A stretch of 64,000 nt of DNA from Promethearchaeota archaeon Loki_b31 (GTDB lineage Archaea > Asgardarchaeota > Lokiarchaeia > Sigyniarchaeales > SOKP01): assembly GCA_005222975.1 (NCBI GenBank), contig NJBI01000007.1:1-64000 (forward strand), in the 5' to 3' direction. Within the stretch, counting starts at the first letter, position 1. Each line of letters begins with the position of its first letter. Both the position numbers and the translations under genes were made by a program. The notes beneath the pieces are model-generated. The model searched no databases. It saw only the letters and a program-made list of their open reading frames with translations, and had not been told where the DNA came from. Positions 24,547 to 38,626 of the stretch are shown one piece after another.

Positions 24547-24918
24547 GTGAATACTATGAAAGGGAAAATGAAATTTTATTTATTGTTAGGATTTTTCCAA
24601 TTAGTGCTTATATTGATTGTGTTTTTTAGTATAGATGGAATTATCACTATGGTTGCAGCACAAACAGAGAGTTATGATTACTTTAATTCTCCAACAGCGG
24701 CGATTTTAGCTATTTCAGCAGCAATATCATTTTCAGCAGCAGTAATAGGAAGTGCAATCGCTTTAAAAACAGTAGGTACAGCAGCAATATCCGCTCTATC
24801 CGAAAGAGAAGAAAGTTTTTTTAAAGCATTTTTAGTCGTTGCTTTTTGTGAGGCATTAGCAATATATGGTTTAATAATAGCGATCCTTTTCTTGACAAAA
24901 ATTCCTAACCCAGCATAA
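24547..24918 (+). CDS. atpK: A/V-type ATPase proteolipid subunit K/c
   Basis: Helical hairpin with ion-binding Glu in FCEALAIYGLIIA; extra N-terminal hydrophobic helix. Confidence 0.9.
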   Translation: MNTMKGKMKFYLLLGFFQLVLILIVFFSIDGIITMVAAQTESYDYFNSPTAAILAISAAISFSAAVIGSAIALKTVGTAAISALSEREESFFKAFLVVAFCEALAIYGLIIAILFLTKIPNPA

Positions 24919-24959
24919 TCTAGATTTTCATTTAAAATCGTTAAGAAGGTGTTTTTTTT

Positions 24960-26021
24960 ACGAGTGAAATTATTCCGTCCTACGCTTATACATATATTAA
25001 AATCGATTATTTAAAACCATTAATAATTGATGATGACACTTTACTAAAACTTAAAAGAATCTACGATATTGATGATTTCATGGAATCTATTAGACTTTAT
25101 TATCCTAATTTAGATTTTAAAGAAAATACTATTGAAGATATTGAAGTTGCTCTTAAAAATAATTACATTAAGCTAATTGGTAAAATTTTACATTATTCAC
25201 CCCAAAACATGAGAATATTCTTAAGAAATTATCTCATGAAATTTGAAATACAAAATCTCAAACAAATAATCATCAGTTTAATTTTAGGAATTAATCAAGA
25301 AGAAAAAAGAAAACACATTAATTTTTTAGTTGAAGAATATTTAGATAACACGGAATTCATTGAAGATTTGCTTAAATTTACTTCTTTAGATGAAATACAA
25401 TTATTTCTTAAAAGAACTAAATACAATATAGCTATTAGAGAAGGTATTCTTTACTATAAGAAAAATAAAGAAATTTTTATTCTGGAAGCTTTTTTAGATC
25501 AATTATATTATAAGCAACTTATAATACAACTGGAAAATTTAAATAGAAAAGAGAAAACAATGATATCGTTGTTTGTGAAATACAAAACTGAAATTTATAA
25601 TATAAATGTGATTTATAGGGGAATAAAAAATAAAATTGAACCAAAATTATTATCTCAATTTCTTGTAAATAATTATTTATTCCTAGATGAAAGTAAATTA
25701 GAACATTTGTTAAATCTTGATAATATTGATGAATTTATATCAGTTATTAAAGAATATTTGAAGAATATTAAGGAAATAAAACCATTTTTTATCAAGCTAA
25801 AAATTAATCAAAAGCACTTAATTAGGTCAATTGAACAATTTTATATAACTTATTATTTTAAGAAATTTAAGATTAAAATTGACGACATTGATTTTTTCAC
25901 CATTTACAAAATTTTAGAAATACTTATAAAAAAAGAAAAAGAAATACGATTTGATATTTTACCAAAAGTAATTAAAATCCTTCACTATAAGTTTAAAGCA
26001 TTAAAAACGCAGAAATTTTAA
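24960..26021 (+). CDS. atpC: A/V-type ATPase subunit C (d); probable ACG start
   Basis: FEIQNLK, LEAFLDQLYY, EIYNINVIYRG motifs. The 40 codons upstream of ATG 25080 (SEIIPSYAYTYIKI..) resemble the subunit C N-terminal helix. Confidence 0.8.
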   Translation, partial: TSEIIPSYAYTYIKIDYLKPLIIDDDTLLKLKRIYDIDDFMESIRLYYPNLDFKENTIEDIEVALKNNYIKLIGKILHYSPQNMRIFLRNYLMKFEIQNLKQIIISLILGINQEEKRKHINFLVEEYLDNTEFIEDLLKFTSLDEIQLFLKRTKYNIAIREGILYYKKNKEIFILEAFLDQLYYKQLIIQLENLNRKEKTMISLFVKYKTEIYNINVIYRGIKNKIEPKLLSQFLVNNYLFLDESKLEHLLNLDNIDEFISVIKEYLKNIKEIKPFFIKLKINQKHLIRSIEQFYITYYFKKFKIKIDDIDFFTIYKILEILIKKEKEIRFDILPKVIKILHYKFKALKTQKF

Positions 26022-26073
26022 AGTTAATTATGAAATAAAATATTTAATATTAAATAATACGGGAGTAGTAATA

Positions 26074-26385
26074 ATGCCAATTTTTAAATGGGTTGAAGAA
26101 ATCGAAAATATTTATGAAAATTTGATTGAAAACGCCAAAAAAGAAAGTTTAGAAGACATTGAGAAACTAAACGCTTCACTTGAAAAGGATATAGAAAAAA
26201 AAAATCATAATAATCAGGAAATTATTAATTCTGCCTTAAAAACACTTTCAAAAGAAGTTAATGAAAAATCGTTAAAATTTGGAGAGTCAATATCGAAATT
26301 ATGTAACAAAATAGAAAAAAATTATTATGAAAATAAGGAAGGACTAATGAATTTAATATTTGAGAAATTAGGATTTGATTTTTAA
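26074..26385 (+). CDS. Putative A/V-type ATPase peripheral stalk subunit H/G
   Basis: 103-aa charged coiled coil (EEIENIYENLIENAKKES) within the ATPase operon. Confidence 0.6.
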   Translation: MPIFKWVEEIENIYENLIENAKKESLEDIEKLNASLEKDIEKKNHNNQEIINSALKTLSKEVNEKSLKFGESISKLCNKIEKNYYENKEGLMNLIFEKLGFDF

Positions 26386-26702
26386 TGCCAGATAAAAAAA
26401 TACATGTATTAGGCTACGACGAAATAGTTTTATTGTTTGGTCTTTTAGGTATTGAAGGAACGATAATTAAACATAATGAAGATTTTTTAAAAATTTTTAA
26501 AAATTTAATAAAAAAAACTTCTGTTGCTCTGATAATTATATACATGGATTTATCAGACGAAAATCTCGAATTTATAACAGATTTTAAAATAAATAATAGA
26601 ACGCCATTTGTATATTTATTACCAGATTTTTTTCAACAAGATATAAAGAATCAAGATAAGATATTCAACAAAATTCACGAATTAATAGAAGAAATTATAT
26701 AA
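26385..26702 (+). CDS. atpF: A/V-type ATPase subunit F
   Basis: KIHVLGYDEIVLLFGLLGIEG N-terminal motif; PFVYLLPD. Confidence 0.85.
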   Translation: MPDKKIHVLGYDEIVLLFGLLGIEGTIIKHNEDFLKIFKNLIKKTSVALIIIYMDLSDENLEFITDFKINNRTPFVYLLPDFFQQDIKNQDKIFNKIHELIEEII

Positions 26703-26736
26703 CAAGAGATGATCGGCCATTAGTGAAGGAAACGAC

Positions 26737-27441
26737 GTGAAAGAGAGATTTGGAAAACTAAGTTTGTATTTAATAAATCAAGCTGAAAATGAGATAAAGA
26801 AGATCAATCAACAATCCCTTTTTCAAATGGCAGAAGTTAGAAAAAAAGCTAGGGAAAGAACTTCAGAAAGCTCTTTAAAATTGAAAGCGCATTTTAACGA
26901 AACATACAATAAACTATTAAATAATTCTCTATCTTCTTATCTCTTGAAAATTAAAGAAGAAGTATTGAAATCAAAAAACAAGTTAATGTTAGAACTTATT
27001 TCAGATTTAAAAGACTTAATAAAAGACAAAATAAAAAATAATTATTCGAGCTACATTATCCTTTTACTAAAAAATCTTGAAAATATCAAGCATTTTGTAG
27101 ATAAACCACCGGAGATTATCATTCACTTAAATTCAATAGATTTTAAATATTTCAGCAATAATATGGAAAAGATTGAAAGTATATTAAGAAATAAAGTAAA
27201 TTTAATCAAGTCAAAAGAAGAATTTACGGGAGGTTTTAAGTGTGTAATTATGACCGGACATTTATCTTACGATTATACGATTAAAAATCAATTAAAGAAG
27301 AGCACATCGATTATAGAAATTGAGTTTTCAAAGATTTTTTCTGACTCCGAGCCTGATATTAAAGCTCTAGAAAATAATTATATACAATTTATCAAAAATC
27401 AAAAATTAGCTGTAAACGAATATTTAAAGAAATATGAATGA
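26737..27441 (+). CDS. atpE: A/V-type ATPase subunit E
   Basis: N-terminal coiled coil; GGF...SYDYT C-terminal motif; operon context. Confidence 0.8.
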   Translation: MKERFGKLSLYLINQAENEIKKINQQSLFQMAEVRKKARERTSESSLKLKAHFNETYNKLLNNSLSSYLLKIKEEVLKSKNKLMLELISDLKDLIKDKIKNNYSSYIILLLKNLENIKHFVDKPPEIIIHLNSIDFKYFSNNMEKIESILRNKVNLIKSKEEFTGGFKCVIMTGHLSYDYTIKNQLKKSTSIIEIEFSKIFSDSEPDIKALENNYIQFIKNQKLAVNEYLKKYE

Positions 27442-29275
27442 AACTAACGAAAAAATTAAGTCCGGATATATCTCATCTATAAACGGTTCCTTAATAGAAA
27501 TAAAAGGCTTAGAAAACTATGTACGGCTAAATGATTTAATTAAGGAGTCTAAACATAAAATTTTAGGTGAAGTAATCCAAATTTATTCAGATCATGTTAC
27601 TGTTCAATGTTTTGAAAATACTTCTAATTTAAAATTAAATGAAGAGGTTATTAGTTTACAAGAACCCTTATCAATGGAATTAGGTCCTGGTTTATTAGGA
27701 AATATCTTTGATGGTATTCAAAGACCATTGGAAGCAACCTTTTTGAGTTCTGAAGGCGGAGGGTTTTTAAAGAGAGGCGTTGATTTACCCGCTTTATCAA
27801 GAACGAAAGATTGGCATTTTAAACCAGTAAAAAAGATAAATGATTATGTAAGTACGGGGTATGTGGTTGGAACCGTTCAGGAAACAGAATTTATTGAACA
27901 TAAAATTATGATTCCATTAGGAATTTCCGGAAAAATAACTTATATTGCAAAGGAAGGAGAATATACAGTCAGTGATGAAATTTACCGCTTAAAAAATGGT
28001 TCCAAAGAAAAATCGTTTAATATGATTCAAAAATGGCCAATCACCAAAAATAGGCCTTATAAAGAGCGAGGCTTTCCTAATGAACCACTAATTACGGGTA
28101 TGAGGGTAATCGATCTATTATTTCCAATAGTAAAGGGAGGGACAGTTGCCGTTCCGGGAGGTTTTGGAACGGGCAAAACGGTAATCCAACAATCCCTAGC
28201 AAAATGGTGTAACGCAGATATAATTATTTTTGTTGGATGCGGGGAGCGTGGGAATGAGATTGCAGATGTCTTAAAACAGTTTTCTGAAATAACAGATCCA
28301 AAAAGTGGACGCCCGTTATTAGAACGAATTGTTATCTTAGCTAATACATCTAATATGCCCGTATCTGCGCGAGAAGCAAGTATATTTTCTGGAGTTACAA
28401 TTGGGGAATATTATAGAGATATGGGGTATGATGTTGCAGTTTTAGCAGACAGTACTTCAAGATGGGCAGAATCATTACGGGAAATATCAGGGTTATTAGA
28501 AGAAATGCCAGCCGAAGAAGGATATCCCGCTTATTTACCCTCTAAAATTTCTAGTTTTTATGAAAGAGCCGGTGTTGTTAAGATATTGGGAGAAAAAGAT
28601 TCTGGAAAAGAGAAATTCGGGTCTATAACAATTATTGGTTCAGTATCACCGCCTTCAGGAGATTTCAGTGAGCCTGTTACTTCAACTACAAAGCGTTTTG
28701 TTCAAGCTTTTTGGGCATTAGATGCGAGTTTAGCATATTCTAAACATTATCCTGCGATTAATTGGTTAAATTCATATTCAAAATATCCTGAATTCATCTC
28801 AGATTGGTGGTTTGAAAGAGATATTTATTGGCCTGAGATAGATATAGATTGGTACGAGTGTAGAAAACAAATAAATAGCCTCCTATCTCAAGAAAACGAA
28901 CTAAAAAATGTCACCCAATTAGTTGGTGAAGAAAACTTACCAGAAAATCAACAATTTATCCTATTCATTTCAAAATTGATTAGAAATGGTTTATTAATTC
29001 AAAATGCCTTTGATTCTATAGATTGTTTTACAGATGTTAAAAAATTAATTGGACTAGTAAAACTCATTCTATTACTATTTAAAGAGGGCAAACAACTCTT
29101 AAAGCAAGGTTTTCTAATTGAAGATATCAAAGAACTCGATGTTGTAAATGATATTCTTAGGATTTGCCGTTCTGTTCCTAATAATAACTTTGATCAAATA
29201 GAAAAATTAAGAAAGAAAATGCTAAACGAAATAGAGTCATTAAAATTAACATATGGTGTTTTTAGGAAAAAATGA
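27434..29275 (+). CDS. atpA: A/V-type ATPase catalytic subunit A
   Basis: [48 protein letters not shown]. Confidence 0.95.
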
Positions 29276-30663
29276 GCGTAATTTATAGAAAAATAAAACA
29301 AATTGTTGGACCTTTAATAATTATAGATAATAGACACGATGTACAATATGGTGAAATCGTTAAAATCCATTCTGATGATGGAAAAGAACGCACAGGTCAA
29401 GTCGTAAAAATGGATGAAAAGATAATAACAATTGAAGTATTTGAAGATACAGCTGGAATTTCTTCAGAAAATTCTACAATTACTTTTACTGAAGATTCTT
29501 TTAAGATAAAAATTTCAAGTGATATGATTGGAAGGGTTTTTAACTCCTTAGGAAAACCTATTGATATTAATACGAAACAAGTGTTAGATTCAGACATTTT
29601 TACCGAAATCGAACGAGATATAAACGGTTTACCAATTAATCCTTTTGCAAGAGAATATCCAACGCAAGTCATCCAAACGGGAATATCGGTAATAGACGGT
29701 CTTTTTACCTTAATAAGAGGACAAAAACTCCCAATATTTAGTGGTCAAGGATTACCCCATAATCTATTAGCTGCTCAAATTGTTACTCAAGCAAAAGTTT
29801 TGACAGAAGAACCATTCTTAATAATTTTTTGTGGAATTGGAATTATCCAAGATGAAGCGATTTTTTTTATGAATCGTTTTAAAGAAAGTGGAAACATACA
29901 AAATATCATTTCTTTTATCAATTTTGCCGACGATCCAATAATGGAAAGACTAATAATTCCGCGAGTAGCATTAACTACTGCTGAATATTTTGCATTTGAA
30001 AAAGATATGCATGTTCTCGTTGTTTTAATAGACATGACAAATTATGCTGAAGCTTTAAGAGAACTAAGCGCCGCCAAAGAAGAAATTCCTAGCAGAAAGG
30101 GGTATCCGGGTTATTTATACACTGATTTCGCATCGCTCTATGAAAGAACTGGTAAAATTAAAGGTAAAAAAGGGACAATAACCCAATTACCGATTTTGAC
30201 GATGCCTAACGACGATATTTCTCATCCAATTCCAGATACAACAGGGTACATAACTGAAGGTCAGTTAGTTCTAAATCGTAACTTGGATAAAAAGGGAATA
30301 TATCCCCCTTTTGAAGTTTTAGCGTCTATATCACGACTTATGAAAGATTCAATAGGTAAAAATACTACTAGGGAAGACCATGCTGATGTTAACTCTCAGC
30401 TATTAGCATCGTATTCAGCTGCACTTGAAGTTAGAGATCTTATATCGATTGTAGGGGAAGATGGATTAAACTTAAATCAAAAAGCGTTACTAAGATTTGG
30501 TAACTTTTTCGAACAAAAATTTTTAAATCAAGGGTACACAGAGGAAAGGGATTTTTCAACGACTCTTAATATTGCATGGCAAGCTTTATCTAATTTGCCC
30601 AAAAATCAATTATTTAGAATACAGGACGATTTTGTAGATAAGTACTACATTGAAGAGGTGTAA
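29272..30663 (+). CDS. atpB: A/V-type ATPase subunit B
   Basis: [37 protein letters not shown] (arginine finger). Confidence 0.95.
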
Positions 30664-30669
30664 GTATCA

Positions 30670-31308
30670 ATTAGTTTTAGAGAGTTTAAGCCCACAAAAA
30701 CAAATTTAATGAGTCTACAGAAAAGGTTAACTTTTGCTGTTAAAGGCGAAAATTTTCTAAAATTTAAATTAGAACAAATAATATTTGAGATAAAAAAAAA
30801 TTGGGGTAATTATTTAAAACAACGTGAAATCTTTTTAAAATTATATAAAGACACTATGATTAAACTTAATCAAACTTATAAAGAAATGGGTAAACGAGAA
30901 TTTAATTCGATTAGTAAATTAAGTAAAATCCAATATAATCCAAAGATTGCTGTAAACTTTATAAAAAGGATTGGAACATTAGTGCCAATAATAGATTATG
31001 AACTGATACGGGAAGAATTGCTTCCAGCTTACTCTTTTGAAAATACATCTCATTATCTTGATGATTTGATTATTCTTTTAATAAAATTTTTTCAAAGCCT
31101 CATAATTGTTGCACAGTCTGAAGACCTATTGTTGAAACTCTCTCAAACTTTTAAAAAAATAAATCGTAGGATAAATGGTCTGAAGAATGTAATAATTCCT
31201 GAACTACAAATAGACATTAAAAAAATTAAAGCTGTATTAGAAGAAATTGAAAGAGAAAATTATGTTCGTTTGAAAAATACAAAAAATTTGATTATAAAAA
31301 ATGCTTAA
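30670..31308 (+). CDS. atpD: A/V-type ATPase subunit D; probable ATT start
   Basis: RRINGLKNVIIP, LEEIERENYVRLK. The conserved N-terminal KPTKTNL lies upstream of the first ATG (30709). Confidence 0.88.
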   Translation: MSFREFKPTKTNLMSLQKRLTFAVKGENFLKFKLEQIIFEIKKNWGNYLKQREIFLKLYKDTMIKLNQTYKEMGKREFNSISKLSKIQYNPKIAVNFIKRIGTLVPIIDYELIREELLPAYSFENTSHYLDDLIILLIKFFQSLIIVAQSEDLLLKLSQTFKKINRRINGLKNVIIPELQIDIKKIKAVLEEIERENYVRLKNTKNLIIKNA

Positions 31309-33612
31309 GTGAGAAAAAAAAAAATGACAAAGAAAAGCTCAATGGAGTTATTTAAGGTAAATATTAATCATAATTACAAGGATCTTCTACTACAACACCT
31401 ATCCCAACTTAATCTAGTTCACATTAAAACGAAACCTGAAATAAGCGACATTATTAAAAAAGATAAAGTTTTATTTGATAGAATTAAGAAATTAAGCCAA
31501 AATTTAGAAACCTTATTCAAAAACCTTAATATTACTGAATCTGACTTCCAAAAATTAATATTTGAAAAAGAAGAGAGAAAAGCATTTGAAGCTAAAGATA
31601 TAGACGATTTGTTAAATCAAATATTGAGTGAAATTAATTTTTATTCAAACCGTGTTAATGAGTTAAAAAAATATATGATCACTATCAAAGTGGAATTGGA
31701 TAAAATAAATTTGATTCATGGAAGTTACATTTTTTTGGAAAAATATGAGTTAACGCGAGATAAATTATCGAAATTTAATCGTTTAGAATTTAAAGCCTTT
31801 ACAACCTTCTCAAAGAACCTCGAAAATATAGAGAATCTTTTTGAATTTTCTCATTTTCCGAATTTTTTTCAGTATGATTTTTTAAGCGATGAAAGAATTG
31901 CCTTTTTCGTTATCTATCCAAAGGAACAAGAAGAGGCATTTAGAGAGAGATTACGTTTCATTCATGCCGAGGAAATACCGATTCTTAAAAAATATTTGCT
32001 CTCAAATGGGATAAACTTTCCTCGTATAGCAGATGAAATTAAGTTTATTGTGACATCTTTAAATAAATATCAAAAGGAATTAGAACGATTAAGAGACGAT
32101 AACATACTTCTATTTGCTGCTACGAATGAGATCACGCAAAATATAGAAGAATATGATTGGGCTTCGCATCAATTCGAAGAATTATCTTTAAATCGATTAA
32201 GTTTGAGTTTTTACGTTCCACAAGAAAAAAAACAAGAAATACAAAAGGGGTTGATTGAAAAGTTCCAAGATCAAATAACGATTGAATCAATCGCTATTAC
32301 AAAAAATAAATCTGTTAGCCTAAAAGAAGATAAAAACCATATACATTCAGGAAAATTACCAGATTCCAAAAGAAAAGATTCTTCATTAAAGGAAGAACCG
32401 ACGAATAATAATAAGGAAATTAAAAAGGATTTAAGAAGTACAGCTCCTACAATTATGAAGAATAATTTCTTTGTAAGGCCCTTTGAAACTATTACTAAAA
32501 TGTACGGTGTTCCTGCTTATTCAGAAATTGATCCCACTCCCTTTTTGGCAATAACATTTCCACTTTTGTTTGGATTGATGTTTGGGGATATAGGGCACGG
32601 AATAATATTAATTATCTCAGGTTTGATTGGAGTATTTGTCTTTAGGAACAAAAAAAGTACAGATTTTATAAATTTTTGCTGGATCATTTTGTATTGTGGA
32701 ATCGGTTCTATACTAGTTGGGATTTTATATGGCGAATTTTTTGGGATGCATAACATTGAATTATTTGGAATGGTTTTTTTACACTTAGAACCTGTTACCA
32801 TTCCAATATTTAATATTACTTTACACAATCCATTAAATAATATAATGGTCGTTTTTAAGTTTGCTATATTAATTGGAGTAATACATATTAATTTGGGCTG
32901 GTTCATACAATTTTTGAATTATTGGAAACAGCATAGAAAATATTTAGGTTTTACTGACTCTTTAATTAAAATATGGTTATTAACTGGAGGAACTATTTTA
33001 ATTTTTACTTTTGGTTTTGATATCTATAGATGGATGGAACCTCCTTACCCAATTTTGTTGCCCTTGCTCCCAGGTATATTATTAATACTCTTAAAACCTT
33101 TTGGGAAACTTTTCCATGTTTCTTATTTGAAAGAAGAGACAATTGGAGGTCTTATAGGGGAAGGTACAATGGAGTCATTTGAAACATTATTGTCGATAAT
33201 GAGCAATGTAGCATCTTATATAAGATTACTAGCGTTAGCTTTAGCACATATCTCTTTAATGGTCGCAATTATATCAATGGGGAATTTATTTCAAGGTGAT
33301 GGGATTATTAACGAGATAATTAATATAATAGTATTGATATTTGGTAATATGTTTGTTATTTTACTAGAAGGATTACTTGTTTTTATAAATACCATCAGGC
33401 TCCATTTTTATGAATTTTTCTTCAAATTCTATCAAGGAACTGGAGTTACATATATTCCTTTTTATTTAGACGATAAATATTCTATTATTTCCTTTAAATT
33501 ATACGCCATAAAAGATGTTATTTCCGAAGAAATAGATAAAGAGATTGAATCGAAGAAAGCCCATGAGGATATAATTAAGGCAGAAAAATATATTTCTAAA
33601 AAATATTTATAA
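31309..33612 (+). CDS. atpI: A/V-type ATPase subunit I (a)
   Basis: YGVPAYSEIDPT, FGLMFGDIGHG, SYIRLLALAL (essential Arg), IRLHFYEFF. Confidence 0.95.
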   Translation: MRKKKMTKKSSMELFKVNINHNYKDLLLQHLSQLNLVHIKTKPEISDIIKKDKVLFDRIKKLSQNLETLFKNLNITESDFQKLIFEKEERKAFEAKDIDDLLNQILSEINFYSNRVNELKKYMITIKVELDKINLIHGSYIFLEKYELTRDKLSKFNRLEFKAFTTFSKNLENIENLFEFSHFPNFFQYDFLSDERIAFFVIYPKEQEEAFRERLRFIHAEEIPILKKYLLSNGINFPRIADEIKFIVTSLNKYQKELERLRDDNILLFAATNEITQNIEEYDWASHQFEELSLNRLSLSFYVPQEKKQEIQKGLIEKFQDQITIESIAITKNKSVSLKEDKNHIHSGKLPDSKRKDSSLKEEPTNNNKEIKKDLRSTAPTIMKNNFFVRPFETITKMYGVPAYSEIDPTPFLAITFPLLFGLMFGDIGHGIILIISGLIGVFVFRNKKSTDFINFCWIILYCGIGSILVGILYGEFFGMHNIELFGMVFLHLEPVTIPIFNITLHNPLNNIMVVFKFAILIGVIHINLGWFIQFLNYWKQHRKYLGFTDSLIKIWLLTGGTILIFTFGFDIYRWMEPPYPILLPLLPGILLILLKPFGKLFHVSYLKEETIGGLIGEGTMESFETLLSIMSNVASYIRLLALALAHISLMVAIISMGNLFQGDGIINEIINIIVLIFGNMFVILLEGLLVFINTIRLHFYEFFFKFYQGTGVTYIPFYLDDKYSIISFKLYAIKDVISEEIDKEIESKKAHEDIIKAEKYISKKYL

Positions 33613-33631: not shown

Positions 33632-34159
33632 ATGAAAACCGAAAATAAGAAAGAAAGCTCATCCAAGAAAAATAATTTTCTCAAAATATTACTACTAATT
33701 ATTTATCTAATTGTTTTAATCTTTTTATATATTATATTGATGGAATTTGGAATAAATCCACTTCTTATTATTTTAATACTAGGATTCGTGTTGTTGCTGT
33801 TTGTAGGATCCTTATTTAGGAAAAAAAAGCAAAAATCAATTTATTCGAAAATGTTTCCTGATAAAAAAAAAAGAAGAAGTCAAGATTTTCATCGAAAATT
33901 AGAATTGAAGATAGAAAGGACACCTGAGAAACCAGCTCAAAAAGATTTTAAAGAAGTGAATCTAAACTTTAAGTATCGCAAATCCCTTATTAATAAATGC
34001 GAAAATTGCGGGATGATCATAACAAGCTACAGTAAAAATTGCCCTACATGTGGTCAAGCACTTGGAATGAAAGAAATTGTTAAGAAATGTAAAAATTGCG
34101 GAATGTTAATTACAAAGTCTGTGAAAGTATGTCCAATTTGTAGAAAGCGAACAATATAA
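33632..34159 (+). CDS. Membrane protein with two transmembrane helices and a double zinc ribbon
   Basis: Two hydrophobic helices; CENCG..CPTCG and CKNCG..CPIC. Confidence 0.75.
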   Translation: MKTENKKESSSKKNNFLKILLLIIYLIVLIFLYIILMEFGINPLLIILILGFVLLLFVGSLFRKKKQKSIYSKMFPDKKKRRSQDFHRKLELKIERTPEKPAQKDFKEVNLNFKYRKSLINKCENCGMIITSYSKNCPTCGQALGMKEIVKKCKNCGMLITKSVKVCPICRKRTI

Positions 34160-34201: not shown

Positions 34202-36031
34202 ATGGTCACAGAAACAAATAATTCTAATTTGGGTTTTATATCTGCTGTTAATGGATCATTAGTGGAGGTTAAAGGATTAGAAAATCAGGTTCGGCTTCAT
34301 GATTTAATTAAGATTAGTAACTATAACATTATTTGTCAGGTAATTCAAATCTACTCGGATCATGTAATAGCCCAATCTTTTGAAAGTACTAATAGTATAA
34401 AATTAAACGATAAAGCAATTAATCTTAACGAACCTTTATCGATGGAGTTAGCACCAGGTTTATTAGCAAATGTTTTTGATGGAATTCAGAGACCTTTAGA
34501 TCTTACTTTCAGCCACTTTAAAGAAGGAAGATTAAGAAGAGGCCTTGAATTTCCTTCTTTATCAAGGACAAAAAAATGGCATTTTATTCCATCGAGAAAA
34601 ATAAATGGTTCTTTAAGTACTGGAGATGAAATTGGGACCGTTCAAGAAACATCCTTTTTTAAACATAAAATAATGATTCCTCCTGAAAATTCTGGTATTT
34701 TATCGTTTATTGTTGACGAAGGTGATTATACAATTATCGATGAGATATATACCTTAAGAAAGGAGAATGTAGATAAATCTTTTAGTATGTTACAAAAATG
34801 GCCAGTCACTATGAGCAAACCTTATAGCGAAAAAAATCAACCTAGCGAACCTTTACTAACTGGCTTGCGTATTGTAGATCTATTGTTTCCTGTAGCAAAA
34901 GGTGGTACTTTTGCGGTTCCAGGAGGGTTTGGAACTGGTAAAACAATTATTTCACAACATATAGCTAAATTTTGTAACGCAGATGTCGTTCTATATATAG
35001 GATGCGGGGAGCCTGGCAATGAGATTGCAAATTTTCTAAAACAATTCGCGGAAACTATTGATCCTAAAACGGGAAGACCTTTATTAGAACATATTGTTCT
35101 TATTGCCAACACTTCAAATATGCCCGTGTCTGCTCGCGAAGCAAGTCTTTTTTCAGGTATTACAATCGCAGAATATTATAGAGATATGGGGTACGATGTT
35201 GCCGTTGTAGCAGATAGTATTTCAAGATGGGCAGAATCTTTAAGAGAGATTTCAGGGCTATTAGAGGAAATGCCTGCTGAAGAAGGTTATCCTGCGTATT
35301 TGCCATCGAAACTATCAAGTTTTTTTGAGCGAGCTGGTGTTATTACAACTTTAGGATGTGATGCTTATGGTAGAAAAAAAAAAGGATCCATAACAATCAT
35401 AGGATCGATATCTCCACCAGCGGGAGATTTTAGCGAACCGGTTACCGCAGCTACTAAACGTGTTGTTCAGGGGATTTGGGCTTTAGATCCTAAATTAGCA
35501 TATCTAAAACATTATCCTGCAATTAGTTGGATCAGTTCATACTCCAATTATCCTGAGTATGTAGCAGAATGGTGGCGCGAGAGAGACATTGTTTGGCCTG
35601 AGATAAATTTAAACTGGTTTGAGTGTAGAAAACAAGTAAATGAGATTTTAGCAAAAGAAAACGAGTTGAAATATCTTATCCAGCTACTAGGACTAAAAAA
35701 TTTAGCTGAAGATCAAAGGTTAGAAATTTTTACGGCAAATCTAATAAGAAATGCAATTTTAATTCAAAATGCTTTCAACGTAGTAGATAGTTATACGAGT
35801 AGTAGAAAATTGTTAGGGTTAGTAAAGGTAATACTTTTATTATATAATAAAAGTAGATCACTCGTAAAACGAGGTTTTCTAATTGATGAGAAGAAGTGCG
35901 ATGAAGTTCTCATTGAGGTTATGAAAATTAGTCATTATGTTCCTAATGAAAATTTTGAACAAATTGAAGAGCTAAGGGATAAAATTAATAATGAATCTTT
36001 AGGTTTAGTTTTTAATGTTCATCGAAGATAG
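34202..36031 (+). CDS. atpA: Second A/V-type ATPase subunit A paralogue with GER-to-GEP substitution
   Basis: Full-length paralogue of 27434..29275; Walker A intact; GCGEPGNE instead of GCGERGNE. Confidence 0.9.
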   Translation: MVTETNNSNLGFISAVNGSLVEVKGLENQVRLHDLIKISNYNIICQVIQIYSDHVIAQSFESTNSIKLNDKAINLNEPLSMELAPGLLANVFDGIQRPLDLTFSHFKEGRLRRGLEFPSLSRTKKWHFIPSRKINGSLSTGDEIGTVQETSFFKHKIMIPPENSGILSFIVDEGDYTIIDEIYTLRKENVDKSFSMLQKWPVTMSKPYSEKNQPSEPLLTGLRIVDLLFPVAKGGTFAVPGGFGTGKTIISQHIAKFCNADVVLYIGCGEPGNEIANFLKQFAETIDPKTGRPLLEHIVLIANTSNMPVSAREASLFSGITIAEYYRDMGYDVAVVADSISRWAESLREISGLLEEMPAEEGYPAYLPSKLSSFFERAGVITTLGCDAYGRKKKGSITIIGSISPPAGDFSEPVTAATKRVVQGIWALDPKLAYLKHYPAISWISSYSNYPEYVAEWWRERDIVWPEINLNWFECRKQVNEILAKENELKYLIQLLGLKNLAEDQRLEIFTANLIRNAILIQNAFNVVDSYTSSRKLLGLVKVILLLYNKSRSLVKRGFLIDEKKCDEVLIEVMKISHYVPNENFEQIEELRDKINNESLGLVFNVHRR

Positions 36032-36795: not shown

Positions 36796-37704
36796 TTGGT
36801 ATTAAGAGAATCTTCTGCCGCGGGAATTTATTATCCACGATCCAAATCGGATTTAATTAAAATGTTAGAAGAATCCTTTTTAGATAAAGAATTTGGACCA
36901 AGTGAAAAATTCGACTCTTTAAACCAAAAAACAAGAACAATATTTGGTGGATTATCTCCACACGGGGGTTATGTTTATTCTGGTAGCTGTGCGGCGCATA
37001 CATATTTACATTTGTTTAAGGAAAAAATCCCCGATACTGTTGTAATATTAGCCACTGAAGATTTAGGATATAACAACATTGCTTTATTAGAAGTAGGCGA
37101 ATGGGAAACTCCGTTAGGTAACCTAGAGGTTGATAGTGATTTGTCTCAAAAATTGCTAAAAACGAGTAGCATGGTTAAAGGAGATGATTCTGCTTTTGTT
37201 GGATTTCCCTTTGGAAGAGAGTATTATATTGATGTACAATTGCCGTTTATTAAATATTGTGCGTTAAAGAGAGAGATAAAAATCTTGCCAATTATTATTT
37301 CTATAATGGATTATGATAAATTAGATAAATTATCCAAAGATATCGCGAGAGTAGTCCAATCCTTAAACAAAGATATAGTATTTATAGGTTCTACAGATAT
37401 GAGTCATATTATTTGTAAAGATGAATTTACTGCTGGATTTAAAGTGCAAGAAATGCTCTTAGCAGATAAATCTGTAATCAAATCGTTTACAAAATTTAAC
37501 CCAAAGAAGACTTTTTTTGATGCGTCAAGATTTTCTATAAAAGGGCCACAAATTCTTACCACATTAATGCTAATATGTAAAAGGATGGGTGCAAACGAAT
37601 GTAGAGCATTAAATTATTACACTAGTTATGACAAGGGTGGAGGATCTGGTCCATGTAAATATAATGCAGGATATTTTTCGGGGATAATTATAAAAGATAT
37701 TTAA
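36796..37704 (+). CDS. MEMO1/AmmeMemoRadiSam protein B paralogue with degenerate metal site
   Basis: AGIYYP, SPHGGYVYSG, WETPLG, STDMSH retained; GxxH, EH and CG motifs are replaced. Confidence 0.8.
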   Translation: MVLRESSAAGIYYPRSKSDLIKMLEESFLDKEFGPSEKFDSLNQKTRTIFGGLSPHGGYVYSGSCAAHTYLHLFKEKIPDTVVILATEDLGYNNIALLEVGEWETPLGNLEVDSDLSQKLLKTSSMVKGDDSAFVGFPFGREYYIDVQLPFIKYCALKREIKILPIIISIMDYDKLDKLSKDIARVVQSLNKDIVFIGSTDMSHIICKDEFTAGFKVQEMLLADKSVIKSFTKFNPKKTFFDASRFSIKGPQILTTLMLICKRMGANECRALNYYTSYDKGGGSGPCKYNAGYFSGIIIKDI

Positions 37705-37735: not shown

Positions 37736-38626
37736 GTGACAAAATTGGTTATAAGAAAAGCATCACATGCGGGAAGTTGGTACCCTGGTAAAAAAGAGGA
37801 TTTAATAAAAAACCTAGAATATGCTTTTTCTGAAAAAGAGTTTGGGCCAGGAAAATTACCTGAAACGCTAAATCAAGATAGTAGGAATATTATTGGAGGT
37901 GTATCTCCTCATGCGGGATATACTTTTTCTGGAAGATGTGCTGCCTTTACGTATTTAAACTTATTTAAAGAAAGAATCCCGGATACAGTTATCGTATTAG
38001 GGACTGATCATGTTGGCTATGGAAAGGTGGCCCTATTAGGAGATGGAGCTTGGGAAACGCCTTTAGGAAACTTACAAATTGACGATGAATTATCTAAAAA
38101 GATTTTAGATACAAGTGAAATTATTGTTGAAGATCGTTCTGCCTTCACCGGCTTCATGGAACAAGAACACAATATTGAAATACAATTACCTTTCATTAAA
38201 TATTGTGCTAAAGATAAAGATGTAAAAATAGTAACACTAAAAATAGGAATTAGAAGGGATTATAGCGTATTTGAAAAAATAGCATCTGATATTTCTGCAG
38301 CAATTAAGGCGTTAAATAAAGATATTGTTCTTGTAGCATCGTCTGATATGTCACATAAAGAGGTTTTTGATAAAAATCAATTAAGTGAGTTTAAGAAATT
38401 TGATCAAGATGTTATTGATGCTTTTGTAGAATTTAATCCTAAAAAAACTCTTTCAGCTGCTTCAAAAACAACCGTATGCGGAGCCCAAACAATAACGACT
38501 TTAATGTTAATTTGTGAAAAATTAAACGCAACTAAAGGTGAATTGTTAAAATATTATACTAGTAGCGATATTAGGGGAGGATATGGATATTGTGTTGGTT
38601 ATTTTTCGGGGATTATAGTAAAATAA
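37736..38626 (+). CDS. amrB: MEMO1/AmmeMemoRadiSam system protein B
   Basis: HAGSWYP, SPHAGY, GTDH, EHNIEIQLPF, SSDMSH, VCG, VGYFS. Confidence 0.9.
   Translation: MTKLVIRKASHAGSWYPGKKEDLIKNLEYAFSEKEFGPGKLPETLNQDSRNIIGGVSPHAGYTFSGRCAAFTYLNLFKERIPDTVIVLGTDHVGYGKVALLGDGAWETPLGNLQIDDELSKKILDTSEIIVEDRSAFTGFMEQEHNIEIQLPFIKYCAKDKDVKIVTLKIGIRRDYSVFEKIASDISAAIKALNKDIVLVASSDMSHKEVFDKNQLSEFKKFDQDVIDAFVEFNPKKTLSAASKTTVCGAQTITTLMLICEKLNATKGELLKYYTSSDIRGGYGYCVGYFSGIIVK

What the first reader, a model, noticed from the sequence alone, without database searches (positions are those of the whole stretch)
34202..36031. Extra ATPase A subunit with the catalytic-site Arg replaced by Pro
Seen: the second full-length A has GCGEPGNE (CCT at 35012-35014, P271) versus GCGERGNE (R272) in copy 1. 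The ORF is otherwise intact, shares a WWxERDIxWPEI segment with copy 1, and has no second B partner in the window. Known: the Arg after the catalytic Glu contacts nucleotide phosphates and is essentially invariant in rotary ATPases. Inference: a nucleotide-binding but catalytically impaired subunit that might throttle or regulate the A3B3 head.
Basis: partly seen in the sequence, partly recalled or inferred. Interest (0 to 1): 0.7.

Follow-up and report, generated by a model that had tools for sequence, protein, structure and literature searches.

The report
Arginine-less second ATP synthase head subunit
One family of Lokiarchaeia (Asgard archaea) ends its only rotary ATP synthase operon with a second, well-preserved copy of the catalytic subunit whose phosphate-gripping arginine is always proline, so it is probably a nucleotide-binding but nearly dead head subunit, which I found described in no paper.

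Summary
Window 34202-36031 (+) encodes a 609-aa A subunit (A2) with GCGEPGNE (Pro271, CCT at 35012-35014). Copy 1 (27434-29275) has GCGERGNE. The assembly holds one B subunit.

The proline is neither an error nor a private mutation.
- All 109 A2 orthologues compared have Pro; all 43 A1 and 49 diverse A subunits have Arg.
- All four Pro codons are used.
- The motif occurs in 75 of 400 Asgard genomes, all in one family, always as I-Zn-A2 at the operon's end.
- dN/dS is 0.07-0.21 for A2 against 0.06-0.15 for A1.
- Of 55 near-universal A-subunit positions, 53 are kept, including Walker A and the catalytic Glu.

What changes is specific.
- Besides R→P there are a few second-shell substitutions: I316L, S435L, D277N, A430P.
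- The C-terminal loop (residues 497-502), which I take to be the rotor-contact loop, is relaxed and charge-reversed. A1's invariant GEENLPE becomes a variable Gx(K/R)N.

The homologous Arg binds the γ-phosphate in E. hirae V1. In E. coli F1 its mutation abolishes Pi binding and ATP synthesis.

My best reading is a catalytically impaired alternative head subunit that brakes ATP-driven reverse rotation. This is inferred, not shown.

This scan found the same family on other genomes. I found no paper describing it.

The parts
34202..36031 (+). A2: second A/V-type ATPase A subunit (609 aa), the Arg-less paralogue and last gene of the operon
   Evidence: Intact ORF. Pfam domains PF02874, PF16886, PF00006 and PF22919 all match. 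The AF2 model has pLDDT 91.5 and TM 0.91 to the E. hirae V1 A subunit.
35000..35023 (+). GCGEPGNE motif: catalytic Glu270 (35009-35011) followed by Pro271 (35012-35014) in place of the phosphate-binding Arg
   Evidence: Pro is present in 109/109 orthologues and Arg in all A1 and diverse A subunits. All four Pro codons are used.
34922..34945 (+). Walker A / P-loop GGFGTGKT (residues 241-248), intact
   Evidence: These columns are invariant across 84 aligned A1, A2 and diverse A sequences.
35654..35737 (+). C-terminal helix-loop-helix (residues 485-512; loop tip G497-A502), which I take to be the DELSEED-equivalent rotor-contact lever
   Evidence: A1 has QL[VI]GEENLPE in 32 of 33 family genomes (GEENLSD in one); the A2 loop varies. 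A1 Glu500 (43/43) becomes Lys/Arg in 92% of A2. Mean entropy is 0.58 in A1 against 1.25 in A2, MWU p=0.0006.
35147..35149 (+). Leu316 (Ile in all A1), an A2-specific substitution one helical turn after the invariant Arg312
   Evidence: Leu in 30/30 A2 genomes and Ile in all A1 and out-groups.
35504..35506 (+). Leu435 (Ser/Ala in A1), part of an A2-specific cluster with V403I, F421V and A430P
27434..29275 (+). A1: canonical catalytic A subunit with GCGERGNE
29272..30663 (+). B subunit, the only one in the assembly
24547..33612 (+). Rest of the A-type ATPase operon: K, C, a 103-aa gene, F, E, A1, B, D, I
33632..34159 (+). Membrane double zinc-ribbon gene between I and A2. It is conserved after I whether or not A2 is present.

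Best explanation
A2 is a long-lived paralogue of the catalytic A subunit. It arose by duplication of A1 at or near the base of one Lokiarchaeial family, and selection maintains it as the last gene of the only rotary ATPase operon. It keeps the full A-subunit fold, the P-loop, Walker B and the catalytic Glu, and almost every universally conserved residue, so it most likely still binds Mg-nucleotide and still assembles with B into the A3B3 head. It has lost the Arg that grips the gamma-phosphate/Pi. It has also loosened and charge-reversed the C-terminal lever loop that I take to push on the central stalk D. The inference is that an A2-occupied site can neither bind Pi for synthesis nor stabilise the transition state for hydrolysis, and it no longer needs to transmit torque. 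A head containing A2 would therefore stall when running backwards on ATP, acting as a brake against wasteful hydrolysis. Ion-driven forward rotation could still be forced through the dead site. What is shown: conservation, selection, distribution, synteny, the site-specific pattern of change and the fold. What is inferred: loss of catalysis, assembly into the head, and the braking role.
For: Pro is present in 109/109 A2, against Arg in 43/43 A1 and 49/49 diverse A subunits. Among the 120 best 90%-identity clusters, 98 carry E-P. The exact coding pattern occurs in 75/400 Asgard genomes, all in family f1 (74/134 plus the window's own genome) and 0/265 elsewhere. Pro codons CCA, CCT, CCG and CCC are all used. 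In the genus-level tree A2 forms one clade (SH-aLRT 98) whose topology mirrors that of A1. In the family-wide tree it is one group apart from the homogenised genus-g12 A1 genes. dN/dS is 0.07-0.21 for A2 and 0.06-0.15 for A1. Synteny is K-C-x-F-E-A1-B-D-I-Zn-A2 with convergent EndA in all six genera, with spacers of at most about 50 nt. Of 55 near-universal positions, 53 are kept in A2; only R271P and L520 are not. No new basic residue appears that could replace the Arg. Extra variability in A2 is significant at the lever helix-loop-helix (p=0.0006) and marginally at the C-terminal tail (p=0.04). The N-terminal barrel and bulge are as conserved as in A1. In genus g12 the two copies are homogenised to 81% identity, yet P271, L316, L435 and K499 persist. 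The D-contacting region of the C-terminal domain of A is described in PMC3772951.
Against: There is no biochemical, expression or stoichiometry data. The catalytic Glu and the whole GCGEPGNE motif remain nearly invariant, which is more than a purely structural pseudo-enzyme would need and could mean residual or altered catalysis. F1 mutants of key catalytic residues still rotate at 10^-3 to 10^-4 of the normal rate (PMC5380711), so 'dead' may mean 'very slow'. A2 is missing from about 45% of family genomes, some with a contiguous I-Zn-EndA junction, so it is dispensable. The lever region was chosen after looking at the data. Its equivalence to the rotor-contact loop rests on sequence position and general knowledge, not on a solved complex.
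Confidence: 0.6

Rival explanations
1. A2 is still a working catalytic subunit with altered kinetics or substrate handling. For example, it may be a slow or hydrolysis-only isoform, or one in which B-subunit residues or bound cations take over the Arg's role. Heads containing A2 would then be an alternative isoenzyme, not an inhibited one.
For: The catalytic Glu, P-loop and Walker B are invariant in all A2. The GCGEPGNE motif itself is almost invariant. dN/dS is as low as for A1. Rotary catalysis is robust to single catalytic-site mutations, at much reduced rates.
Against: In E. coli F1 even the conservative R182K change loses ATP synthesis and Pi binding. Pro has no side chain that could reach the phosphate. 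No compensating basic residue is gained in A2. The presumed torque-transmitting loop is relaxed, which is not expected for a working motor subunit.
Confidence: 0.17
2. A2 works outside the rotary head. It may be a free or B-bound nucleotide sensor, an assembly chaperone or placeholder for the head, or a partner of another machine.
For: A2 is dispensable in many family members. The lever loop that contacts the rotor is unconstrained. Several bulge-domain positions (109, 117, 125, 127, 142) are invariant in A2 but variable in A1, hinting at a partner of its own.
Against: A2 always sits in the ATPase operon directly after I and Zn. It keeps 53 of 55 universal A positions, and its barrel and bulge domains are as conserved as in A1. 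There is no second B, D or other partner gene nearby.
Confidence: 0.18
3. The Pro is a sequencing or assembly error, a private mutation, or the mark of a decaying duplicate.
For: None was found beyond the prior expectation that this Arg is invariant.
Against: The same substitution occurs in 75 genomes from six genera with four different Pro codons. All ORFs are intact, dN/dS is about 0.1-0.2, and the A2 tree mirrors the A1 tree.
Confidence: 0.01

Closest known systems
Catalytic subunit A of A/V-type rotary ATPases (AtpA/NtpA; solved examples P. horikoshii 3M4Y/1VDZ, E. hirae 3VR4/3VR6, T. thermophilus 6QUM)
   Same: A2 has the same four Pfam domains, the same fold (TM 0.91), the P-loop, Walker B and the catalytic Glu. 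It sits in the ATPase operon and is 63% identical to the cell's own A1.
   Different: The phosphate-binding Arg after the catalytic Glu is Pro in every member. The lever loop is charge-reversed and variable. A2 is a second copy without its own B.
Non-catalytic head subunits: B of A/V-ATPases and alpha of F-ATPases
   Same: These are paralogues of the catalytic subunit that sit in the hexamer, bind or once bound nucleotide, and do not turn it over. They are the precedent for duplication followed by loss of catalysis (PMC10656485; bioRxiv 10.64898/2026.10.01.756066).
   Different: Those duplications predate LUCA or LACA, and the subunits alternate with the catalytic ones. A2 is a young, family-restricted copy of A itself. 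It keeps the P-loop and Glu and would compete for the catalytic position.
E. coli F1 beta-Arg182 (bovine beta-Arg189) mutants and E. hirae A-Arg262
   Same: This is the homologous residue. Eh-A Arg262 contacts the gamma-phosphate (PMC5095293). Beta-R182Q/K lack ATP synthesis, have low ATPase activity and lose Pi binding (PMC3268026).
   Different: Those are laboratory mutants of the only catalytic subunit. A2 is a naturally selected variant that coexists with a wild-type copy.
Dedicated hydrolysis brakes of ATP synthases (IF1, epsilon C-terminal domain, zeta subunit, MgADP inhibition; from my own knowledge)
   Same: The proposed outcome is the same: ATP-driven reverse rotation is blocked while synthesis is spared.
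   Different: Those brakes are small inhibitor proteins or conformations acting on a normal head. Here the brake would be a built-in defective catalytic subunit. This is a functional analogy only and was not tested.
Nanoarchaeum equitans NeqA-NeqB core (5BN3-5BN5)
   Same: It is an archaeal A subunit of a 'unique ATP synthase core complex' and appears among the structural matches. From memory it is reported as lacking ATPase activity.
   Different: It is the organism's only A subunit, in a reduced enzyme, not a second copy beside a canonical one. I could not retrieve the paper, so the activity statement is unverified here.

Membership tests
A/V-type ATPase subunit A (AtpA/NtpA) | Domain architecture: N-terminal beta-barrel, A-specific barrel-sandwich ('bulge') insert, alpha/beta nucleotide-binding domain, V/A C-terminal domain | tested here: met
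   PF02874, PF16886, PF00006 and PF22919 all score above their cut-offs.
A/V-type ATPase subunit A (AtpA/NtpA) | Three-dimensional fold of solved A subunits | tested here: met
   The AF2 model has pLDDT 91.5. Foldseek gives E 2.5e-70 and TM 0.91 to E. hirae V1 A.
A/V-type ATPase subunit A (AtpA/NtpA) | Walker A GxxGxGKT and the catalytic Glu of GxGERGNE | tested here: met
   GGFGTGKT and Glu270 are invariant.
A/V-type ATPase subunit A (AtpA/NtpA) | Phosphate-binding Arg immediately after the catalytic Glu (Eh-A Arg262, F1 beta-Arg182/189) | tested here: not met
   Pro is present in 109/109 A2; Arg is present in all A1 and in all 49 diverse full-length A subunits compared. No other E-P variant occurs among the 150 representatives.
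A/V-type ATPase subunit A (AtpA/NtpA) | Encoded in the rotary ATPase operon | tested here: met
   A2 is the last gene after I and Zn in all 30 loci examined.
A/V-type ATPase subunit A (AtpA/NtpA) | ATP hydrolysis/synthesis coupled to rotation within A3B3 | not testable with these tools
   This needs enzymology and structure of the complex.
Non-catalytic (pseudo-enzyme) head subunit, in the manner of B/alpha | Occupies a position in the hexamer without turning over nucleotide | not testable with these tools
   This is inferred from the lost Arg and the relaxed lever loop only.

The most novel reading that the evidence does not exclude
A2 takes one defined position of the head, giving an asymmetric A1(2)A2(1)B3 enzyme that works as a one-way ATP synthase. 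Ion flow can force the rotor through the dead site, yielding two ATP per turn. ATP-driven reverse rotation stalls at the A2 site. This would be a built-in ratchet suited to energy-starved syntrophic Asgard archaea, and the first natural rotary ATPase with non-equivalent catalytic subunits.
Probability: 0.2. Interest if true: 0.85.

Novelty: new variant of a known kind. Interest (0 to 1): 0.62.

Why it matters
Rotary ATPases are textbook three-fold symmetric motors with three identical catalytic subunits. The Arg after the catalytic Glu is among their most invariant residues. A naturally selected, family-wide second catalytic subunit that lacks this Arg and shows a loosened lever loop, which I take to be its rotor contact, suggests a new way of regulating or desymmetrising the motor from within the head. 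[quoted passage not shown] The hypothesis can be tested directly with recombinant A1/A2/B/D/F. It would also be a natural counterpart to the hybrid-F1 experiments that defined rotary cooperativity.

Tried and rejected
- **Sequencing error or private mutation:** rejected by the orthologues.
- **Decaying duplicate:** rejected by dN/dS and the intact ORFs.
- **A compensating basic residue near the site:** none was found. The only positions that gained basic residues are 431 and 499, and 499 lies at the distant lever loop.
- **Independent convergent origin in genus g12**, where A1 and A2 are 81% identical: rejected. The g12 A2 carries A2-type residues at 6 of 8 discriminating positions, and the g12 A1 carries A1-type residues at 7 of 8. 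This points to homogenisation, not a second origin.
- **A link between A2 and the zinc-ribbon gene:** rejected. That gene follows I in genomes and families without A2 as well.
- **Thermodynamic 're-gearing'** (a higher ion/ATP ratio allowing synthesis at lower ion-motive force): I consider it unlikely. Each 120-degree step still receives only one third of the ions, unless energy is stored elastically across steps. This is reasoning only.
- **Literature searches** for a description of the paralogue found nothing.
- **The N. equitans NeqAB paper** could not be retrieved.
- **Residue-level mapping** of L316, K431 and L435 onto the active site could not be done, because model coordinates are not exposed to scripts.
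- **An A2-B complex model** could not be made, because the folding tool handles single chains only.

Full report
**Observation.** The ORF at 34202-36031 (+) is intact and encodes a 609-aa protein. It carries all four Pfam domains of an A/V-type ATPase A subunit. Residues 267-274 read GCGEPGNE, and the DNA at 35000-35023 places Pro271 at CCT 35012-35014. The first copy, A1 (27434-29275), reads GCGERGNE. The two copies are 63% identical end to end and share the WWxERDIxWPEI segment. That segment includes a 6-residue insertion relative to P. horikoshii A. The whole assembly (3.5 Mb, 99 contigs, 92% complete) contains only these two A genes and one B gene.

**Not an error, not private.** Source names place the organism in Lokiarchaeota/Promethearchaeota.
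- In every genus relative examined that holds two A copies (15 species), the distal copy has GCGEPGNE and the proximal one GCGERGNE.
- Of the 120 best 90%-identity clusters in public data, 98 carry Glu-Pro: 95 have GCGEPGNE and three have single-residue variants. The rest are A1-type.
- In an alignment of 109 A2, 43 A1 and 49 diverse A subunits, the position is Pro 109/109, Arg 43/43 and Arg 49/49.
- Among the 150 best 50%-identity representatives from all life, no other lineage has Glu-Pro.
- A degenerate DNA pattern for the motif hits 75 of 400 Asgard-phylum genomes. All are in family f1: the window's genome plus 74 of 134 others, in six genera. None of the 265 genomes of other families has it.
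- All four Pro codons occur, so the amino acid itself is what is maintained.

**History.**
- In the genus-level tree A2 forms one clade (SH-aLRT 98).
- In the family-wide tree A2 lies inside the A1 diversity of family f1, and its topology largely mirrors that of A1. This indicates one duplication at or near the base of the family, followed by vertical descent.
- Gene order is K-C-(103 aa)-F-E-A1-B-D-I-Zn-A2, followed by a convergent tRNA-splicing endonuclease gene. This holds in all six genera, with spacers of at most about 50 nt before A2.
- Out-group families and some family members (G020, G003, G006, G001) have I-Zn-EndA contiguous, with no room for A2. G020's A1 is sister to that of an A2-bearing species. 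These are therefore clean losses, and A2 is dispensable.
- In genus g12 the two copies are 81% identical, against 57-71% elsewhere. Even so, the A2 copy keeps A2-type residues at 6 of 8 discriminating positions and A1 keeps 7 of 8. This is homogenisation with the hallmark residues held by selection.

**Selection.** Pairwise NG86 dN/dS is 0.07-0.21 for A2 and 0.06-0.15 for A1 in the same species pairs. In most species pairs A2's dN is a third or more above A1's. A2 is therefore a functional protein.

**What changed and what did not.**
- Of 55 positions that are at least 97% conserved in A1 and at least 90% conserved in diverse A subunits, 53 are kept at 95% or more in A2. The exceptions are R271P and L520, which is Phe in a third of A2.
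- Walker A (GGFGTGKT), Glu270 and Asp338 (the Walker B Asp by my assignment) are invariant, and the PPxGDFSEPV nucleotide-pocket segment is invariant or nearly so.
- The clade-specific substitutions are few: R271P, D277N on the same 'arm' helix, I316L one turn after invariant Arg312, and a cluster of V403I, F421V, A430P and S435L. L117F lies in the bulge.
- No new Lys or Arg appears that could replace the lost guanidinium. The only gained basic positions are 431 and 499.
- In 14 species with both copies, per-site entropy shows one region where A2 is clearly less constrained: the C-terminal helix-loop-helix 485-512. Mean entropy there is 0.58 for A1 and 1.25 for A2, with MWU p=0.0006 against the rest of the protein. 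The region was chosen after inspection, but the result survives correction for the eight regions tested.
- There, A1 reads QL[VI]GEENLPE in 32 of 33 family genomes (GEENLSD in one). A2 reads GLKNLA, GQKSLA, GEGGIP, GDLDLT, GVNYLS and others. A1's Glu500 (43/43) is Lys or Arg in 92% of A2.
- By position, this loop is the counterpart of the F1 beta DELSEED lever. [quoted passage not shown] The residue-level equivalence is my inference.
- By contrast, the N-terminal barrel and the bulge domain are as conserved in A2 as in A1. Positions 109, 117, 125, 127 and 142 are invariant in A2 but variable in A1.

**Structure.** The AlphaFold model (pLDDT 91.5, pTM 0.91) is a canonical A subunit. Its best matches are E. 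hirae V1 A chains (TM 0.91) and T. thermophilus V/A-ATPase A. Pro271 sits at the N-terminal end of helix 272-284, a position that tolerates proline. The fold therefore need not be disturbed.

**Mechanism (inferred).**
- In E. hirae V1, A-Arg262 (first turn of the 'arm', residues 261-275) binds the gamma-phosphate together with P-loop Lys238 and the B-subunit Arg finger (PMC5095293).
- In E. coli F1, the homologous beta-Arg182 is needed at every stage. R182Q and R182K lack ATP synthesis, have low ATPase activity and lose Pi binding, and R182Q abolishes the transition-state complex (PMC3268026).
- A Pro cannot reach the phosphate. An A2 site should therefore bind nucleotide but neither bind Pi nor catalyse efficiently.
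- Alanine mutants at F1's catalytic site still rotate at 10^-3 to 10^-4 of the normal rate (PMC5380711), so 'very slow' is more accurate than 'dead'.
- The relaxed, charge-reversed lever loop fits a subunit that no longer has to deliver torque. The preserved barrel, bulge and core fit one that still assembles with B and the stalks.
- In a sequential three-site motor, one such site should stall ATP-driven rotation. Ion-driven rotation could be forced through it. I therefore favour a built-in brake on hydrolysis.
- I do not favour thermodynamic 're-gearing', because each 120-degree step still receives only a third of the ions.
- The main rivals are residual or altered catalysis and a role outside the head. 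The near-invariance of the whole GCGEPGNE motif, including Glu, argues for residual catalysis. Dispensability and the A2-specific bulge residues argue for an outside role. Neither is excluded.

**Comparison and novelty.** A2 meets every structural and contextual criterion of subunit A except the defining phosphate-binding Arg. I file it as a new variant of that family, not as an ordinary member. The nearest conceptual precedents are the ancient non-catalytic B and alpha subunits. A2 differs in being a young copy of A itself that would compete for the catalytic position. Two recent phylogenomic papers on rotary ATPases do not mention it, and further full-text searches found nothing. This scan has already flagged and followed up the same paralogue on several other genomes, with the same reading. 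The family is thus a repeat find within the scan, and this window is one more member. New here are:
- the lever-loop relaxation and charge reversal;
- the very short list of discriminating residues;
- the documented clean losses;
- the g12 homogenisation test.

**Verdict.** It is a real, conserved and apparently undescribed variant of the catalytic subunit. Its interest is moderate to high, because it is directly testable and touches the symmetry and regulation of a textbook motor in Asgard archaea.

Noticed in passing
window 33632-34159 (+): A 175-aa membrane protein with a double zinc ribbon directly follows subunit I. It sits at this place in all family loci and also in out-group Lokiarchaeial families (G032, G038), with or without A2. 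It looks like a lineage-specific accessory gene of the ATPase operon, of unknown role.
   Followed up: partly
window 36796-37704 and 37736-38626 (+): Two tandem Memo-family genes sit here. The first copy (Memo1) is present only in the closest relatives (G021, G017, G005, G009); other genus members have a single Memo2-like gene at this place.
   Followed up: partly
L061/L062 (G174, G175, genus g12): A1 and A2 are 81% identical here, against 57-71% in other genomes, uniformly along the gene. This suggests gene conversion between the paralogues that spared the hallmark residues.
   Followed up: yes
L050 and L051 (G031, another family of the same order): This genome has two separate, divergent ATPase operons, both with the normal GCGERGNE motif.
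   Followed up: no
proteins P0178, P0186, P0188, P0207, P0210, P0239, P0245, P0252, P0246: Other A-like proteins in public data have lost the catalytic Glu instead, for example ACGLSGNE, SCGARGNE and ACGGRSGG. One cluster is from an Oscillospiraceae MAG and one from the slime mould Cavenderia fasciculata. Degenerate A-subunit paralogues may have arisen several times independently.
   Followed up: partly
L060 (G008, same genus): This genome's only A subunit is just 46% identical to the query and sits in a differently ordered operon (I-K, then C-B-A on the other strand). The native ATPase operon may have been replaced.
   Followed up: no
window 27434-29275 and 34202-36031: Both A copies carry a WWxERDIxWPEI segment with a 6-residue insertion relative to the P. 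horikoshii A subunit, at the start of the C-terminal domain.
   Followed up: no
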